Positions 34,512 through 60,705 of a stretch of DNA of 64,000 nucleotides are shown in pieces. The translations under genes were made by a program, and so were the position numbers. The DNA is taken from positions 24,242,001 to 24,306,000 of the forward strand of contig OX597832.1 of assembly GCA_951406725.2 (NCBI GenBank). The letters are read 5' to 3'. The first letter of the stretch is position 1, and each line of letters opens with the position of its first letter. This DNA is from Octopus vulgaris. Taxonomy: Eukaryota. The notes below the pieces were generated by a model. That model was not told the DNA's origin. It did not search any database and saw only the letters and a program-made list of their open reading frames with translations.

Positions 34512-34587
34512 TGAATTAATTGGGAATTAATTACTTTTGGTTTCTGCTTTTTTTTACTCTTGGACTAGCTTTCTGCTAAACTCTTGC

Positions 34588-35268
<681 letters not shown>

Positions 35269-35756
35269 TTAAAGTAATTTAAAGCTCTCCTTCGAAATTC
35301 CATGTTAATTTATGTTACAGAGTCCAGCTTAATATTGACAAAATTATTTCAATAAATTCTTGATTATATTCAAAAATTAATTGAAACTATTTCAACATAT
35401 TTCAACAGAAACATGGTAATGAAAGGGTTAAGTGATGACAACGATGATGATGGTTTTGTGTGTGTGTACACCTCCTCGTTTAGACATTATGCAGTAGTCA
35501 TAAATGAGCACCATGCTTATGCAAATGAGGTTGTTCGTTTCCAATCTCCATCATTATTTAACATCTGTTTTACATGCTGGTATGGGTTGGATGGTAATAG
35601 GACAAAATCCCACCAAGGACAAAATCTCCCTCTGGACAATATCCCCTGGGATATTGTTTTTCCTTTACAATAAAAATATTTTAGAAAAGTGAAATTTTAT
35701 TAAAAAAAATTTATTTTATTATTTCTTAATTGATATTTTTGTTAAAAATTTGTTGG

Positions 35757-35962: not shown

Positions 35963-36148
35963 TCCCCCCAACATTGCTTGACAACTGATGCTGGTGTGTT
36001 TTCGTCCCCGTAACTTAGCAGTTCAGCAAAAGAGGCTGATAGAATAAGTACTAGGCTAACAAAGAATAAGTGCTGGGGTCGATTTGCTCGACTAAAAGGC
36101 GGTGCTCCAGCATGGCCGCACTTAAATGACTGAAACACGTAAAAGAGG
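35757..36148 (+). mobile_element. SINE family A
   Basis: Similar to 3098-3522. Confidence 0.85.
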
Positions 36149-36687: not shown

Positions 36688-36804
36688 ATAAAGGCGAAGA
36701 TATTGATGGGAAACCTTTAGAAGAGGATCTTCAGGCTCAAAATCAAGCCAAATTTGCTCAATCAAAGTGGGAAACGGTGGATGAAGCTGAACTGGAGGCC
36801 CAAG
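36688..36804 (+). CDS. U2SURP: U2SURP exon (KGEDIDGKPL...SKWETVDEAELEAQ); 5' boundary uncertain
   Basis: Conserved SKWE.VDE.ELEAQ; donor gttagt; acceptor could be 36670, 36672 or 36687. Confidence 0.82.
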
Positions 36805-37126
36805 GTTAGTTTCCTCCCTTGCTACCAATTCCTTCGTATTGCACCCCTCTCTCACTCTTTCGTTCTCTTTGTCATATGTACATACATATATGTAAATATA
36901 TACATATATATATATATATATATGATAAATCGTTAACCACTACGTACATTTTTTTTCTCTCCTTTCTCTCCTTGTTTCTTTCTGTGTCCCTTTCTGTAGA
37001 AGAGCGTAGGCTCGAAACATAAAAGACTTTTTCTATTCCTGAGCGTTATACTAATACATCTGTTTGTTTTGTATACCACCTGTATTCGTGTTTTGTTTTT
37101 TTCGTAAACTCTCCCTATATATACAT

Positions 37127-37159
<33 letters not shown>

Positions 37160-37163
<4 letters not shown>

Positions 37164-37554
37164 AAATATTATTAGAGACAAAACCACTATTTTGCAAAAC
37201 AAACAAGGAAAGACTTAATCAATACATAAAATTTTAATAAATAGTCAAAAAACCACTACAATCGTTTCTTGTCTTGATCGACAATCTTCAGGTGGACTTC
37301 CAATAAGTCAGTTTCAAATTATTGAAACTGACTTATTGAAGTCCACCTGAGATTGTCGATCAAGACAAAAACGATTGTAGTGGCGGTTTTTTGACTATTT
37401 ATTAAAATTTTATGTATTGATTAAGTCTTTCCTTGTTTGTTTTGCAAAATAGTGGTTTTGTCTCTAATAATATTTTATAATATTTTACTATAAAATTGGA
37501 TTTAATCCTAAATCTGATTTTTTTTCCTGTAAATTTGGATTTATTCCTAATATT

Positions 37555-37560
<6 letters not shown>
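37160..37560. mobile_element. Penelope-like inverted pseudo-LTR remnant between (TA)n tracts
   Basis: ~158-bp arms around a 4-nt loop (37318-37321); contains hammerhead motif. Confidence 0.7.
37253..37295 (-). ncRNA. Minimal type I hammerhead ribozyme
   Basis: Minus strand CCAC-CUGAAGA-UUGUC(GAUCAA)GACAA-GAAAC(GAUU)GUA-GUGG: all core residues and stems I-III present. Confidence 0.78.
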
Positions 37561-37616
<56 letters not shown>

Positions 37617-38439
37617 GTATAGGCATGCACTCATTCACACATATGTTCTAACACACAGACAGACATTTCAAAAGTAAACAATCAATCATTTTTGAAATAT
37701 TTATTTAGACACAAAATAATGTAATCTGGTGCATTTAAATATTTAATCTAGCATTTAGTGAATGTGCTTTGTGCAGGATTCATTAACATTTTTGAAGCAC
37801 CAGGTAGTGTCCGCACGGATAAAACATTATAAAGAGGGACATCTATTTACTTTTGAGATGTTTTGTGTACATACACACATATGAAGGATTTAAAAAAGAT
37901 CCATGTGTATGTCTGCTTCTCTGTCTCTTCGTCACCCTCTAACCTTTCATCCTGTGACACGAGTTCCCCTCTTCATATGTCCCTGCCCCTCTCGTAATTC
38001 CTTGTCTTGCAAGTTACATGGTTACCCTGCCAGTGCTGGTGCTACATAAAAAACATCCAGTCCACACTGTAAAGTGGTTGGCATTTGCAAGGGCATCCAG
38101 CTGTAAAAATCATGCCAAAACTAACCTCACTTGTGCTGGTGCCACGTAAAAAGCACTGAGTCCACTCTCCTGGGTGGTTGGTGTTAGGAAGGGCATCCAG
38201 CCGTAAAATCCCTTCCAAAACAGACACAGTAGCCTTGGGTAGTTTTTCCACCTGGCTGGCTCCTGTCGACCATTCTACCCATGCATGCATGGAAGATGGA
38301 CATTAAATGATGATGATCTTAAAATCCCTTCCTTTCATCAGAAATTTTTGTCCAGTTCTCTCCACTGATTTAATTTTGCTGATGACAAACATCAGAATTA
38401 ATTTTCTCTAGAAACTTAAAACAAAATAGTTACATGTCT

Positions 38440-38669
38440 TTAACCCTTTTGATACCAACCTGGCTGAAAGCACCTCTGGTTCTGTAGTACAAATGTCTTG
38501 TTTCCAAAAGTTCTGAATTAAAATCTTCCACCAAACCTTAGTTATCATTAAGCTGGTGTTAGGAACATAGACTGTGACTAAGTTCTTTTACTAAATTCTT
38601 TGTTATATTTTAAATTAATTGAAAGAAACACAGAGCATCTCAACAGAAATATGGTAACAAAAGGGTTAA
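38440..38669. mobile_element. piggyBac-like MITE
   Basis: TTAACCCTTTTG...CAAAAGGGTTAA; reverse of the 1875 family. Confidence 0.75.
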
Positions 38670-38856
38670 AGATGGTCAGTTTAAGAATTCCTTTAGTCTA
38701 TAGTTTGTCTGGTAGTAGCAGTATGGGGTGGGGGGTGAACGTGGTTCTGTATTTTATGTGGAATAGTGAATAGTATTTTATGTGGAATTGTGATTGAAAG
38801 TATGTTGTTGCATGCATTTATTTATATATATTTATTTTGTTTCGTTTGTTTTGTAG

Positions 38857-38956
38857 CCATGACTACATCTAAATGGGATCTGCTTGATCAGCAAAGTGAT
38901 GGTGGTGAAGATCAAAAGAGACAGATGGAGGAAGATCAAGATGATATTGATGGACA
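38857..38956 (+). CDS. U2SURP: U2SURP exon (AMTTSKWDLLDQ...)
   Basis: ttgtag / gtgagt. Confidence 0.93.
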
Positions 38957-39900
38957 GTGAGTTTAATTTATCTCTTTACTCTTTTTACTCTTTTACTTGT
39001 TTCAGTCATTTGACTGTGGCCATGCTGGAGCACCGCCTTTAATCGAGTGTGGCTAAGAGGCTTGCTTTGGGACCATGTGGTCTCAGGTTCAATACCACTG
39101 CACGACACCTTGCCTAGACATCATGTGGTGGTTGTAAGTGAACGCCGTCATCATACAAACAAGGTTGTTTGCTTTCAGTCTTCCATGAAAACATGTCCGG
39201 CCATGAGTAAATATTACTTTGCTAGAAAGGTTGGTGACAGGAAGGGCATCCAGCTGCAAAAAAAAAAAACCTGCCTCAAAACAAATTCTGTCTGATCCAC
39301 TCAAGCATTGAAAATGTAGCTATTAGTCAATGAGGACATGTGAGACCATAACCCGTGGCCTTTACCTGGGATGTAGCTAGTCCACTTATGCATACCTTTC
39401 CTTCTTGAGACACAAAACCCTGCTTGCGAAGACCTGCTGAGGCAAGTGAAATCGAAATCGATCAAAAAATCAATAGAAATTGTAGTTGTGATACCAGTGC
39501 CGGTGGCATGTAAAAGAACCGTCCGAACGTGGCCGTTGCCAGCGCCGCCTCGACTGGCCTCCGTGCCAGTGACATGTAAAAAGCACCAACTAATCGTGGC
39601 CGTTGCCAGCCTCGCCTGGCACATAAAAAGCACCCACTACACTCACGGAGTGGTTGGCGTTAGGAAGGGCATCCAGCTGTAGAAACACTGCCAGATCAGA
39701 CTGGGCTTGGTGCAGCCTCCTGGCTTCCCAGATCCCCCGGACGTTAAACGTTGATGATGATGATTAAAAAAAATAGAGCTCTGTACATGATTATTTATTA
39801 GATATGGTAAAACCAACTTTACAATGTTAAACTGTTAACCTTCTCGTTTTCTGATCCATATTCTTCAATGTACTGATGTTGTTGTTGTTGTTGCTTTCAG

Positions 39901-41934: not shown

Positions 41935-42341
41935 AAGGCTGAAGACGCTCGACCTTTATTCTCTAGAAAAACGACGACGCTGTGGTGATCTCATTCTTGC
42001 TCACAACATCATAAGCGGAAAGTGTAACCTCTCGAAAGAGCTGTTCTTCACTCCTGCTCCAGAGCGTCGGCTGCAGGGTCACTCCGAAAAGCTCTATCTA
42101 CGACAATTTCATCTCAATCGAAGGAGAGGGGCTTTCCACACCCGGGTTGCGGATCCGTGGAATAAGCTGCCAGACGAGATAGTGAAGATGCCGACGACCG
42201 CTTGGTTCAAAGTCTCCCTTGACCAGAAATGGCCTGAACTCTTTGCATGAACACCCTCCCTGTACATAACTCCATGTCCCCCTACATGGCCTTGCTTTTT
42301 GCTTTTTGAGCCAAAAAATTAACTTAACATAACTTAACTAA
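41935..42341 (+). mobile_element. CR1-like LINE ORF2 C-terminus + 3'UTR
   Basis: RLKTLDLYSLEKRRRCGDLILAHNII...RVADPWNKLPDEIV...*; (TTAAC)n-like tail. Confidence 0.85.
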
Positions 42342-56209: not shown

Positions 56210-57712
56210 TCACACCAAACAACGTAAACTCCACTCACTCCTCCACTCCATCACACCCGATGCCACTATCCAAACTCACCCCCCTGCCACTCCAACCCCC
56301 ACAGCTACCCCCTCCCAGCCTTCCACTACCCCCACCACCCTTCTCACTTCTGACCCGTCCACCCCTTCGCCACTTCAGTCTGTTGTTACCATTCCTCCAG
56401 ATCTTCCCTTCTCTGAGGCTGAGTGCTCCCTCCTCAGTAAGGGTCTGCACTTCATACCCCCTCACTCCATCCAGCAAAGAATTTCAGACTCATGCTGATA
56501 TCCACATTTTTGTGCACCGTGTTAGGCTGTGTGCACTATTCTGCGACACTCCACCTGCATCTAATAAGGAGGACTGCTTCACCGACCTGAGCTGCCGACC
56601 ATCCCAGTGGACGCTAGCTCCTGGCCAGTTCCAAGCAGTCGATCTTTTTGCGGGCATCTGTCAGCGTGCTGTGGACCGGTTTGACATTTCCAGGCGTCCC
56701 CGACATCTGAACATCTCCCCGGCCAAACTCTCAGTTCTTTGATGTCTCTGATGCCGCAAGGACATCATCATAAAACTGGCTGACAAGGGCGGCGCCGTGG
56801 TGGTGTGGAACGGAGACCTCTAGAAGTTCGAAGCTCTCCACCAACGTCAAGACACCTACTTCTACTGCCCTCTGCCCTCCAATCCCATGCCTAGCAACCA
56901 ACAGACGGTGTCCTCCAGCATCAATAACCTCATCTGCTCTTCCTGTCTCCCCCACCGCCTCCAACCTCATTGTCCGCACCCTTCGCACCCCCACAATTTA
57001 CTTCCTCCACAAAATCCATAAACCTAACAACCCTGGCCATCCCATCGTCTCCGCCTGCAACTGTCCTACAGAACTCATCTCCAAATATCTCAACCATGTC
57101 CTTGTCCCCTAGTGGCTTCTTTCTCCTCTCACATCCATGACACCAACCATGCTCTTCGTCTGTTCAACTTTTTCTCCTTCCCTCCTGGGCCCTCTAAACT
57201 TCTGTTCACTCTTGACATCAAGAGCCTATACACAGTGATCCCTCACTACGAAGGGCTTCTTGCACTCAAACACTACCTTGACCTTTGACCTAACACCCAA
57301 CCTGACACATCCCCACTTCTTCATCTGGCCAAACTTGTTCTCTCACTTAACTGCTTCTCATTCGTGGGTGAGTTTTACCAACAGACCTCAGGAGTGGCCA
57401 TGGGAACAAGAATGGGCCCCAACTATGCGAACCTGTTCATTGGCTACGTTGAGACCCAAATATTCTCAAGTTTCACTGGTCCCACTCCCGAACTATACAG
57501 TCGTTATATTGACAACTGTATCGGTACGACCTTACTCTCCCATGGACAACAAGACTCCTTCCTCTCTTTTGTCAAATCTTTCCATCCTGCCCTCCAATTC
57601 TTCTGCACTATTTCCAACACTTCCGTTGCATTTCTCAACATAATGGTCGGCATTCATCACTCCACTCTCACCACCTCCGTCCACTACAAACACACAGACT
57701 CACACTCACACC
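56210..57712 (+). pseudogene. Penelope-like element reverse transcriptase, decayed and 3'-truncated
   Basis: LLSKGLHFIP, IIIKLADKGGAVVVW, KIHKPNNPGHPIVS, LDIKSLYTVIPH, YQQTSGVAMGTRMGPNYANLF, RYIDN; frameshifts and stops; no GIY-YIG seen. Confidence 0.9.
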
Positions 57713-58986
57713 TTGGTGCGCCAATAGCAGTGGAAAGTGTGGTCTTTGCGATATGGAAAGATGGCTTATCTGGAAAAGTTCTTTAGACCCTGCTACATGT
57801 CTAAATTCCAGAACTGAACTTTTTGGGTCATGTCCACATACGACAAAACATTTGCTACGTTTTTGGACCCCTACAAGATCACAGATAGAACCTGCTTTTT
57901 ATATTATATAATGTCCACGTATAAGCCTTTTGCATGTCTTAACATCCCTTATACTTTTATATATTTTATTACTTTATATATTTTTCTGTATTTATGTAAG
58001 CCATATCTGTGTACTATATACCTAGTGTATATGTACGTGCATATATACATTGTGTACAAATGATTGCACGTATACAAGTACTTGTTGTACTTGTCTCCTT
58101 CCTTCATACACACATGAATGTATGTATATATGTTATATGTCTGCAGGTGTATATGTGTTTGTCAGACAGGGGGTGTATTTGTGTATACACATATATAACT
58201 CATTTGTATATTCAAGTTTTGCGGCGATGGTGAATGGTTTGTGGTATTTTTTCGCGTATGTGTATTTATTTGTATTTACGTCTGTTTGTGTATGCATGCA
58301 CGGGTGCATATAGACTATGCCTTGTTTATTTGAAGTGACCTAAAAAGTAGGGAAATTACTTGTAAGGTCAAAAACAGGAAGAGAGGAATAAAGAAAAGAG
58401 AAAAGGAGAGAAGAAAAAAGAAAAAGAGAGGAAGAGAGGAATAAAGTAAAGAAGGAAAAAAAGGAAAACAAAGAGAAAGTTTTACCGTTTTCTGTCTTTA
58501 CTTAATTTCTCTCTTCCTCCCTCTTTCTTTCTTTCTTTTTTTCTCTTTTTGTGTTCTTTTTTTCTTCTCTTTTTTCCTCTTTTCTTTATTCTTCTCTTCT
58601 TGTTTTCAATTTGACCTTACAGATACATTCTTTACTTTTAGGTCACTTTAAATAAAACCCTCGTTTCAATAGCACTGTGTACAAACTCTATACTTGGAAC
58701 GACCAATTTTAAATACTACTGGAATCTTATATGTATACCATTCTGCCTAAATAATGGATCTACAAATGCAATATCCCTGCATATCTCACATCTATTTTCA
58801 GTCCTCCAATTCACTCTCTATTTCGCATCTTATCTAAATTAATTATTGCTTAACCATTTTCTCACAAAATTCTTATACGCGTCTTTAGGAGCCATGTGGT
58901 TCGTAAGCAAGCTACTTACCACACATGTATAGAAAATATTTAAAAAGAATATTTTAAAATGTTTAAAAATATATAAACAATATATA

Positions 58987-59395: not shown

Positions 59396-60034
59396 TATAG
59401 ATGAGATAAAAATATATAAACAATATATACATATATACACATTGTTGGAAGATCATTGAATACTCATGACTTCCTCTGCCCTTTGACGGCTTTTATTTTT
59501 CCTACTGCAGGGTATCAAATAACCAGCCCCCTCAACAAGGGAACTTAGTGGGGTTGCCAGTTCAGTCACTGATGACCTGACCGCGCAGCAGGTTGTACAG
59601 AGTTACGTGTACTAGTCACATTTAACAATCTGACATCTACATATACATCTATATACATATATACATATGTGTGATGGCATGTATATATGTGTATGTGGTG
59701 GTATATATATGTATATATGTGTGATGTGTATGTATGTGCATACAAACCACACTTTCACAGCTAATATTCGACTTATTTGTGCATTGATGTGGCTGTCCTA
59801 CATTCTGGTTGTTCAACCCACTTCCAAAATTTTAAATGGTTTAACAATAGGCTATGCCTGCTGTGTTTGTGAGAAAAGAGAATTATGCTTTTAGTGAGAA
59901 ACTAAACTCTCACGATATCTTATAAGATAAGCTATCAAAACATTTTCAGAGTAACAAATAAATTGTTTTACGTCCAAAGCCGGCAGTTTTTTTAGGCGAA
60001 GAACTTAGATTATGTCATTGATCTAAGTATATGA

Positions 60035-60705
60035 CTATCTTGCCCAGGATATCAATCGTCTGGAAACCGTTCAGCGACGTGCAACCAAAAGAATACTCTC
60101 CATCAGGCATTTGCCATATTCTGAACGCCTTACTTCCCTGGAATCCCTATCTTGCCCAGGATATCAATCGTCTGGAAACCGTTCAGCGACGTGCAACCAA
60201 AAGAATACCCTCCATCAGGCATTTGCCATATCCTGAACGCCTTACTTCCCTGGCCATGGACACATTGAAACTCCGACGTCTGGCAGCTGACTTGGCAGAC
60301 ACCCATAAAATTATCAACCATCTTACAAACAATAACTCTGAGCACCTTTTCGAACTCCACCCGTCTAACACCCGTGGACATGTTTACAAAGTCAGAAAAC
60401 AGCACAGCTCCCATGACTTTAGGAAACATTTTTTCACGCTGAGAGTTGCTGAAGCATGGAACAAACTGCCGGCGTCAGTTGTTAGTTGTCGGAGCACTGC
60501 ATCCTTCAAAACTTCCATGCTTCCTGTGATTCGCCAACACTACACCTGATTTTCTCCCCTCCATACACACACAAGCAGGTATCTGACTCATACACTGTTC
60601 GCTTTCCAGACATTTGTACATTACTGCATATACTTTATACGCACTTTTTGACAAGTTGTGGTGCACCTGAGCACTGGACACAATAATTTCATTATTATTA
60701 TTATT
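60035..60705 (+). mobile_element. CR1-like LINE 3' fragment with duplicated 5' end
   Basis: WNPYLAQDINRLETVQRRATK...TRGHVYK...FFTLRVAEAWNKLP; (ATT)n tail. Confidence 0.9.

What the first reader, a model, noticed from the sequence alone, without database searches (positions are those of the whole stretch)
37160..37479. Intronic inverted repeat with an intact antisense hammerhead and a core-broken sense copy
Seen: minus 37253-37295 is a complete minimal hammerhead (stem I CCAC/GUGG, CUGAAGA, 5-bp stem II, GAAA, 2-bp stem III, GUA site). The sense arm (37343-37383) has single-base losses in both core strands (CUGA-GA, -AAAC). Known: Penelope-like pseudo-LTRs carry such minimal ribozymes, often active as dimers, and form inverted ends. 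Inference: the copy able to cut U2SURP pre-mRNA has been inactivated, leaving a ~158-bp dsRNA stem; sequencing error in a hairpin is the main alternative.
Basis: partly seen in the sequence, partly recalled or inferred. Interest (0 to 1): 0.7.

Follow-up and report, generated by a model that had tools for sequence, protein, structure and literature searches.

The report
Spliced Penelope retrocopy with twin hammerheads
This hairpin is one of many hundreds of copies of a jumping gene's end, lacking exactly the parent's intron and so likely copied from spliced RNA; its broken ribozyme is probably a sequencing error or chance damage rather than host defence.

Summary
The inverted repeat, the intact minus-strand hammerhead and both plus-strand core deletions are in the sequence. 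The element is larger (37160-37559) and not locus-specific: 944 exact intact hammerheads and 1650 3' tails occur genome-wide, inserted in (TA)n. Its parent is a Hydra-clade Penelope-like retrotransposon (RT plus GIY-YIG). The tail-plus-inverted-copy layout and the ribozyme are already described for such elements. Host-driven inactivation is unsupported: sister palindromes nearly always keep both cores, the sense copy would be 97% trapped in the hairpin, and the intact arm is damaged too. Hairpin arms are deletion-rich, so an assembly error (about 55%) or neutral damage (about 40%) is likelier; raw reads were unavailable. The unexpected result: both arms join the parent's splice donor precisely to its acceptor, 1.1-1.8 kb apart. 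471 arms are spliced, yet 0 of 23 ORF-bearing copies are. Head-to-head copies therefore likely come from sense RNA, which bears on the open question of why these elements keep introns. I found no paper reporting this; key older papers were not available. Earlier scan notes did not cover this family.

The parts
36688..36804 (+). U2SURP coding exon upstream of the host intron
   Evidence: AG/GT borders and translation; match to human U2SURP 734-772, E 0.008
38857..38957 (+). next U2SURP exon (start exact, end approximate); host intron is 36805-38856
   Evidence: acceptor and in-phase TTSKW motif seen directly; no PDB hit on its own
37116..37163 (.). left (TA)n/(CA)n target microsatellite
   Evidence: (TA)n flanks the 24 distinct copies shown
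37160..37317 (-). inverted short arm: element positions about 5-169, ending at the family's fixed inner start site (169), no tail
37253..37295 (-). intact minimal type-I hammerhead; predicted cut between 37257 and 37256
   Evidence: 944 exact copies; cleavage untested
37304..37317 (-). exon-1 leader and splice-junction scar (between 37305 and 37304) of the short arm
   Evidence: leader is followed by a GT donor in long parents, exon 2 preceded by an AG acceptor
37318..37321 (.). head-to-head joint (4-nt loop); variable among copies, spacer-free in some
37322..37335 (+). exon-1 leader and splice-junction scar (between 37334 and 37335) of the long arm
37343..37383 (+). hammerhead with one base missing from each core strand
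   Evidence: the two losses occur in 4 and 2 loci genome-wide, together only here
37322..37559 (+). main arm: element positions 5-245, the spliced terminal-repeat RNA copy
   Evidence: 97% identical to a sister copy's long arm
37480..37559 (+). unpaired 3' tail between the two fixed ends (169 and 245)
37560..37612 (.). right (TA)n target microsatellite

Best explanation
The element is a 400-bp, protein-less insertion of a Hydra-clade Penelope-like retrotransposon family, made of two head-to-head copies of the element's terminal repeat that both lack the parent's intron, likely reverse-transcribed from a spliced sense RNA, and its broken ribozyme core is probably incidental. Shown: family membership, copy numbers, two fixed outer ends, (TA)n target, exact donor-to-acceptor joins, intron kept in ORF-bearing copies. 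Inferred: a promoter in the terminal repeat starts RNA about 23 nt before the donor; the RNA is spliced; the parent's RT/GIY-YIG protein nicks both strands of (TA)n and starts cDNA at two internal sites (245 and 169) that lie just upstream of the ORF; the two cDNAs run to the RNA 5' end and are joined head-to-head. A spliced RNA would thus yield only promoterless, ORF-less palindromes, while autonomous copies come from long unspliced read-through RNA. The two core losses are a consensus error in a hard-to-sequence hairpin (about 55%) or neutral damage (about 40%).
For: 40 of 40 scored loci are near-full-length palindromes, 95-100% identical, from 1288 candidates. Long relatives share the same 3' end and inverted arm and encode RT and GIY-YIG with Hydra motifs (motifs from PMC8557442 section 11). 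In parents the short copies' first 13-23 nt are followed by a GT donor, and the hammerhead exon is preceded by an AG acceptor 1.1-1.8 kb away. 13 of 95 spliced arms use a second GT four bases on; none keeps more than 23 nt before the donor. A second subfamily's leader, predicted to be followed by GT, is so in 12 genomic copies, with the acceptor 1095-1174 nt on in 7 of 10 fetched. Genome-wide 471 spliced versus 455 unspliced junction arms (patterns not equivalent). Of 39 ORF-start loci, 23 reach the junction and all 23 keep the intron end. Arms agree at a polymorphic site in 52 of 53 palindromes and in donor use in 45 of 46. Two internal RT start sites, both-strand extension and the tail were shown in vitro for another PLE (PMC11167929).
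Against: No RNA data: splicing, start site and cleavage are read from DNA copies only. Arm concordance could partly reflect polishing with short reads. Twin priming versus fold-back is not settled. Whether the template is the ORF mRNA or a short terminal transcript is untested. The tail (76-80 nt) and element (about 5.7-9 kb) are longer than typical for Hydra elements; no tree was built. One ORF-start locus (L243) is too diverged to classify. In one independent run three low-depth contigs (depth 6-8) carry the second deletion exactly, so that loss can occur outside this assembly.
Confidence: 0.85

Rival explanations
1. One reading: the two core deletions are real and were selected because the sense hammerhead would cut U2SURP pre-mRNA.
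For: Both losses hit invariant core strands of the arm that is sense to the gene; they coincide only at this locus; U2SURP is a conserved splicing factor.
Against: One loss would suffice; two further arm differences lie outside the core, one in the antisense arm. Sense copy predicted 0.97 paired, stem II 0.00. No dimer partner in the window. Minimal PLE hammerheads showed no monomer cleavage or needed the element's protein (PMC4209133; PMC11167929). 1 of 14 tail-selected palindromes has a broken core. Gene context of the other copies was not determined.
Confidence: 0.05
2. Sub-question, artefact: the deletions are long-read consensus errors in a near-perfect hairpin and the animal has two intact hammerheads.
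For: Arms differ by 4 deletions outside the T-run and 0 substitutions. Arm-private deletions to substitutions are 28:32 in 46 tail-selected hairpins against 6:29 in 37 control arms, p 0.004; 3:18, p 0.009 without one misaligned control. Deletions are clumped (61 of 81 loci have none). L248 has about 21 deletions and 3 substitutions. No contig in 4 runs carries both losses.
Against: Hairpins can also delete in vivo. Run X2 holds the second deletion in three contigs. Second-arm bias was 18:10 in the unbiased set and 2:1, 3:1 in two pre-set tests, too weak to count. Contigs cannot show absence of a single-locus allele.
Confidence: 0.55
3. Sub-question, neutral damage: the deletions are real slippage or repair errors of an unstable palindrome, or RT errors at insertion, with no effect on the gene.
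For: Each loss removes one base of a short run; the same losses recur at 3 and 1 other loci; centres of the palindromes vary widely; second deletion seen in X2.
Against: No substitution accompanies four indels in an otherwise young copy; controls are substitution-dominated.
Confidence: 0.4
4. The inverted arm is made by fold-back self-priming of one cDNA rather than by two separately primed cDNAs.
For: Arms are almost always concordant; spacer-free centres exist; self-priming was proposed in PMC3846280.
Against: The short arm often extends further 5' than the main arm (L060 83 vs 142, L039 1 vs 16), which simple fold-back of the first cDNA does not give; its outer end is fixed at 165-169, like a start site; later central deletion could blur both.
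Confidence: 0.3
5. The short spliced palindromes are a self-propagating SINE-like subfamily from one ancient splicing event.
For: Hundreds of near-identical copies with similar length.
Against: Two donor positions, two subfamilies each matching its own parent, shared polymorphisms with unspliced parents, variable inner joints, and no sequence upstream of the presumed start.
Confidence: 0.12
6. A MITE or other DNA-transposon hairpin that happens to hold a hammerhead.
For: Short, high-copy, palindromic, TA-flanked.
Against: Unequal arms, variable inner truncation, precise intron loss, RT-encoding parent.
Confidence: 0.01

Closest known systems
Hydra-clade Penelope-like elements (Craig et al. 2021, PMC8557442; read: passages, sections 10-11, supplement part 2 and search hits)
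   Same: C-terminal GIY-YIG, DKT, CxCX5C linker, no CCHH, CxxC and CxH, (TA)n target, 3' hammerhead of the same build; Penelope-13_HM is listed with an inverted 5'-truncated copy and a hammerhead on each strand.
   Different: Not Hydra-1_Obim (different hammerhead and protein). Elements are longer, tail 76-80 nt rather than 30-40, a 1.1-1.8 kb intron ends 7-8 nt before the hammerhead, and about half of junction-spanning arms are spliced; the word 'spliced' does not occur in that paper's main text.
Penelope of Drosophila virilis (Schostak et al. 2008, PMC2377424, passages and Discussion; Cervera and De la Pena 2014, PMC4209133, first half of text)
   Same: Promoter in the pseudo-LTR, short first exon, intron ending at hammerhead helix I, spliced and unspliced RNAs, inverted terminal repeats.
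   Different: Genomic copies are described as retaining the intron; spliced genomic copies are not mentioned in the parts read.
PAc Poseidon element of Anolis (Frangieh et al. 2024, PMC11167929, results read)
   Same: Two internal RT start sites delimiting a tail, extension of both strands at AT-rich DNA, hammerhead dispensable for insertion in vitro.
   Different: Different clade; no spliced products or head-to-head mini-copies discussed in the part read.
Adineta vaga Penelope families (Arkhipova et al. 2013, PMC3846280, passages)
   Same: Head-to-head inverted pLTRs with palindromic joints, tail, Asn-rich ORF inserts.
   Different: That paper favours self-priming on an antisense template to explain head-to-head joints and intron retention, leaving unspliced sense RNA open; spliced head-to-head copies here need a sense template.
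Animal non-LTR retrozymes (Li et al. 2026, 10.64898/2026.07.22.740005, abstract to methods read)
   Same: Short non-coding PLE-derived units with type-I hammerheads.
   Different: Retrozymes are head-to-tail tandems; these are head-to-head pairs with a splice scar and a tail.

Membership tests
Type-I minimal (dimer) hammerhead, minus arm | CUGANGA and GAAA core strands, NUH site, three helices | tested here: met
   the variable core position changes between subfamilies while the rest is fixed
Type-I minimal (dimer) hammerhead, minus arm | self-complementary helix III region allowing a dimer | tested here: met
   8-bp self-duplex, -5.8 kcal/mol; the common variant turns G-U into A-U, -6.4
Type-I minimal (dimer) hammerhead, minus arm | G10.1-C11.1 closing pair of stem II | tested here: not met
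   U-A here, A-U in subfamily 2, U-U in some; many published Hydra-clade motifs also have U-U at this place
Type-I minimal (dimer) hammerhead, minus arm | Rfam hammerhead model match | tested here: not met
   no hit at E<=10; monomer MFE fold is also not the hammerhead fold
Type-I minimal (dimer) hammerhead, minus arm | self-cleavage | not testable with these tools
   1 of 39 ORF-start copies and 0 of 90 tail-selected copies begin at the cut site
Type-I minimal (dimer) hammerhead, plus arm | complete core strands | tested here: not met
   as assembled
Hydra-clade PLE (parent) | RT followed by C-terminal GIY-YIG | tested here: met
   YRDD and VYKC..YIG in ORF pieces of L102 and L099; Pfam gave no hit
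Hydra-clade PLE (parent) | RWK-type, DKT, CxCX5C, CxxC, CxH motifs; no CX2-5CxxC, no CCHH | tested here: met
   (RWK appears as KWK; one Cys inside the GIY-YIG core)
Hydra-clade PLE (parent) | (TA)n target and 3' hammerhead | tested here: met
Hydra-clade PLE (parent) | generally shorter than 3 kb | tested here: not met
   ORF about 2.5 kb but a further 3 kb or more to the 3' end; a tendency in the paper, not a definition
Hydra-clade PLE (parent) | phylogenetic placement with published Hydra RTs | not tested
   no tree; homologues at 30-44% identity are unnamed
PLE insertion anatomy | inverted 5'-truncated copy plus tail at one end | tested here: met
   inverted arm within the fetched flank in 55 of 90 (strict regex) to about 63 of 90 (hand count)
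PLE insertion anatomy | intron retained in genomic copies | tested here: inconclusive
   met in 23 of 23 ORF-bearing copies; not met in this copy and in 28 of 41 tail-selected copies reaching the junction
Non-LTR retrozyme | head-to-tail tandem units each with a hammerhead | tested here: not met
   head-to-head pair, one hammerhead per strand
MITE | terminal inverted repeats at both ends, DNA-transposase parent | tested here: not met
   one end carries an unpaired tail; parent encodes RT

The most novel reading that the evidence does not exclude
Penelope-like elements do reverse-transcribe their spliced sense RNA, but because cDNA starts at two internal sites just upstream of the ORF, spliced RNA yields only dead-end head-to-head mini-palindromes with twin hammerheads; only unspliced read-through RNA regenerates autonomous copies. 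This would explain the class's intron retention without an antisense template, and it seeds the genome with hundreds of long hairpins.
Probability: 0.5. Interest if true: 0.72.

Novelty: new variant of a known kind. Interest (0 to 1): 0.5.

Why it matters
As proposed (a host gene disarming a ribozyme) the finding is probably not real. The family is more useful: intron retention is a hallmark and an unexplained feature of Penelope-like elements, and an antisense-template model was proposed for it and for head-to-head joints (PMC3846280). Hundreds of precisely spliced head-to-head copies, with two donor choices and two subfamilies, are a genomic record that sense RNA is used, and they make the question testable with stranded long RNA reads and an in vitro assay. 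They also warn that single-base 'inactivations' inside long hairpins of long-read assemblies need read-level checks.

Tried and rejected
Rfam found no hammerhead; miRNA hits are below gathering score and reflect the hairpin. Pfam found nothing useful in parent ORF pieces. Run search listed no holder on record as RNA and no raw reads; contigs cannot test a single-locus allele; the lack of cover over the first deletion is not evidence. A pile-up of 5' ends at the predicted cut was tested after one suggestive copy (L102) and not found: 1 of 39 (that same copy) and 0 of 90. Assembly-strand bias of deletions: all six loci with one broken core have it in the second arm, but the all-loci test (34:15, p 0.009) is biased by four loci picked on that basis; the unbiased set is 18:10 and two pre-set tests gave 2:1 and 3:1; not counted. 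The one pair discordant for donor use could not be pulled out again (one search printed none). Sense versus antisense integrity in introns was not tested: no gene annotation. Identity with Hydra-1_Obim rejected. Literature searches for spliced or intronless PLE copies gave no report of them; subscription papers such as the 2003, 2005 and 2006 PLE papers were not in the library, and supplements of PMC4209133, PMC11167929 and the preprint were not read.

Full report
Observation. The window holds two arms, 37160-37317 and 37322-37479, around a 4-nt loop. The minus strand 37295-37253 is a complete minimal type-I hammerhead, the only descriptor hit in the window; 3 of 200 simulated windows gave one as strict. 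The plus copy lacks one base in each core strand. The arms differ at two more places, one a 3-nt loss in the minus arm, and by no substitution. The host is a + strand U2SURP gene, intron 36805-38856. The genome is octopus-like (named hits of the parent protein; not tested further).

It is a family. A genome search gave 1288 candidates; all 40 scored are near-full-length palindromes at 95-100%. Of 30 loci fetched, 6 were duplicates and 1 lacked a readable centre; the 22 other copies have both cores whole in both arms (biased to good matches). All continue on one side into a tail of about 80 nt and sit in (TA)n, so the element here is 37160-37559. Exact counts: 944 intact hammerheads, 1650 tails, 4 loci with the first loss and 2 with the second, both only here. 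Outer ends are fixed (positions 165-169 and 245 of a 245-nt unit); the inner joint varies.

Parent. Opposed hammerheads kilobases apart led to long elements with the same ends (12 regions). L102 carries an RT and GIY-YIG ORF, in two frames, with DKT, CxCX5C, CxxC, CxH and no CCHH, the signature of the Hydra clade (PMC8557442 section 11). Published Hydra hammerheads have the same build, and one family is listed with an inverted copy and a hammerhead on each strand (supplement). The inverted copy plus tail is standard PLE anatomy, and the tail was shown in vitro to lie between two internal RT start sites used on both target strands (PMC11167929). The listed octopus family Hydra-1_Obim is a different one.

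Splice scar. The first 13-23 nt of the short copies are absent next to the hammerhead in long elements. There they lie 1.1-1.8 kb upstream, followed by a GT donor, while the hammerhead exon follows an AG acceptor. Of 95 spliced arms in hand, 82 use that donor and 13 a GT four bases on; none keeps more than 23 nt before it. A second subfamily has another leader; the predicted donor form exists in 12 copies, with the acceptor in reach in 7 of 10 fetched. Genome-wide, 471 spliced and 455 unspliced junction arms match two non-equivalent patterns. In 90 of the first 100 listed tail sites, 41 reach the junction: 28 spliced, 12 unspliced, 1 cut at it. The 10 left out were 5 long unspliced elements already fetched (which would make it 28 to 17), 1 merged neighbour and 4 not fetched. 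By contrast, of 39 loci chosen by the ORF start (41 matches, 2 partial ones dropped), 23 reach the junction and all keep the intron end; 1 is too diverged to call, the rest are truncated downstream. Both arms of the window copy are spliced at the main donor.

Mechanism. Shown: the points above. Inferred: a pseudo-LTR promoter makes a sense RNA with a short first exon, as in D. virilis Penelope (PMC2377424; PMC4209133). The parent protein primes cDNA at 245 and at 169 from opposite strands of (TA)n; both cDNAs end near the RNA 5' end and join head-to-head. Because those start sites sit just upstream of the ORF, a spliced RNA gives only ORF-less palindromes. Arms agree at a polymorphic base in 52 of 53 palindromes and in donor use in 45 of 46 readable pairs, pointing to one template per insertion, though polishing could add to this. 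Fold-back priming remains possible (30%). An antisense template, proposed to explain head-to-head joints and intron retention (PMC3846280), cannot account for spliced copies.

The broken core. Selection is unlikely: in pre-mRNA the sense copy is predicted 0.97 paired to the arm made before it; it has no dimer partner; such minimal ribozymes did not cleave as monomers or needed protein; 1 of 14 tail-selected palindromes has a broken core. For artefact: of 86 palindromes found, 2 shared too little and 3 were misaligned; in the 46 tail-selected ones arm-private deletions to substitutions are 28:32 against 6:29 in 37 control arms (p 0.004; 3:18, p 0.009 without one misaligned control); deletions are clumped; L248 has about 21 deletions to 3 substitutions. 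Against: hairpins also delete in vivo (recalled; PMC10519405 passages, report only modest increases of deletion error at inverted repeats); strand-bias tests were too weak; and three contigs of depth 6-8 in run X2 carry the second loss exactly, though none carries both. In four runs most family depth has the intact bases, which says nothing about one locus. I put artefact at 55%, neutral damage 40%, selection 5%.

Is the ribozyme working? Conservation pattern and a two-sided change at the base of stem II fit a maintained fold, but copies do not start at the cut. Main-arm 5' ends cluster 7-31 nt after it (27 of 73 at risk; hazard 0.015 per nt against 0.002-0.003 on either side). That may be trimmed cleaved RNA or just AT-rich microhomology; bins were chosen after seeing the data.

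Novelty. Ribozyme, inverted end, tail and clade are known. Mass retrocopying of the spliced pseudo-LTR RNA was not found in searches of an open-access library lacking several older key papers; the retrozyme preprint (first fifth read) concerns head-to-tail tandems. Earlier scan notes had nothing on this sequence or place; those on hammerheads in this genome concern permuted motifs of other elements.

Noticed in passing
L109-L198, element positions 71-95: 5' ends of main arms cluster just after the predicted hammerhead cut, none exactly at it; cleaved-then-trimmed RNA or microhomology.
   Followed up: partly
L102:695 (G000:C1, same locus as L219): One ORF-bearing copy starts exactly at the predicted cut; 1 of 39, so not a pattern.
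   Followed up: yes
L097, L104, L105: Long elements hold two or three tandem units of about 1.74 kb, each with the leader and donor, upstream of one acceptor.
   Followed up: no
L102:2400-2730; L099: Asn-rich low-complexity stretch between RT and endonuclease, like the N-rich inserts described in Adineta Penelope ORFs.
   Followed up: no
L097, L100, L101: Inverted arms of 2.5-4 kb at 99.5-99.9% identity, so the family is very young and makes kilobase hairpins.
   Followed up: no
L248: Palindrome with about 21 short deletions and 3 substitutions, suggesting poor local consensus in hairpins of this assembly.
   Followed up: partly
L138, L154, L162, L179 and L199-L208: Second subfamily with its own leader, donor and hammerhead variant.
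   Followed up: partly
window 57289-57786 (+): 165-aa frame resembling a Penelope-type RT core (recalled resemblance); no Pfam hit and no DNA match to this family's parent.
   Followed up: partly
window 41936-42250 and 60022-60549 (+): Frames resembling C-terminal pieces of CR1/L2-type LINE RTs (recalled resemblance).
   Followed up: no
window 38033-38225, 39229-39261, 39570-39701; 36095-36147 with 38988-39040: SINE-like dispersed repeats in the same and neighbouring introns, some in inverted pairs across the exon.
   Followed up: no
window 34531-35282: Long TCTA/TCTG tetranucleotide array giving spurious open frames.
   Followed up: no
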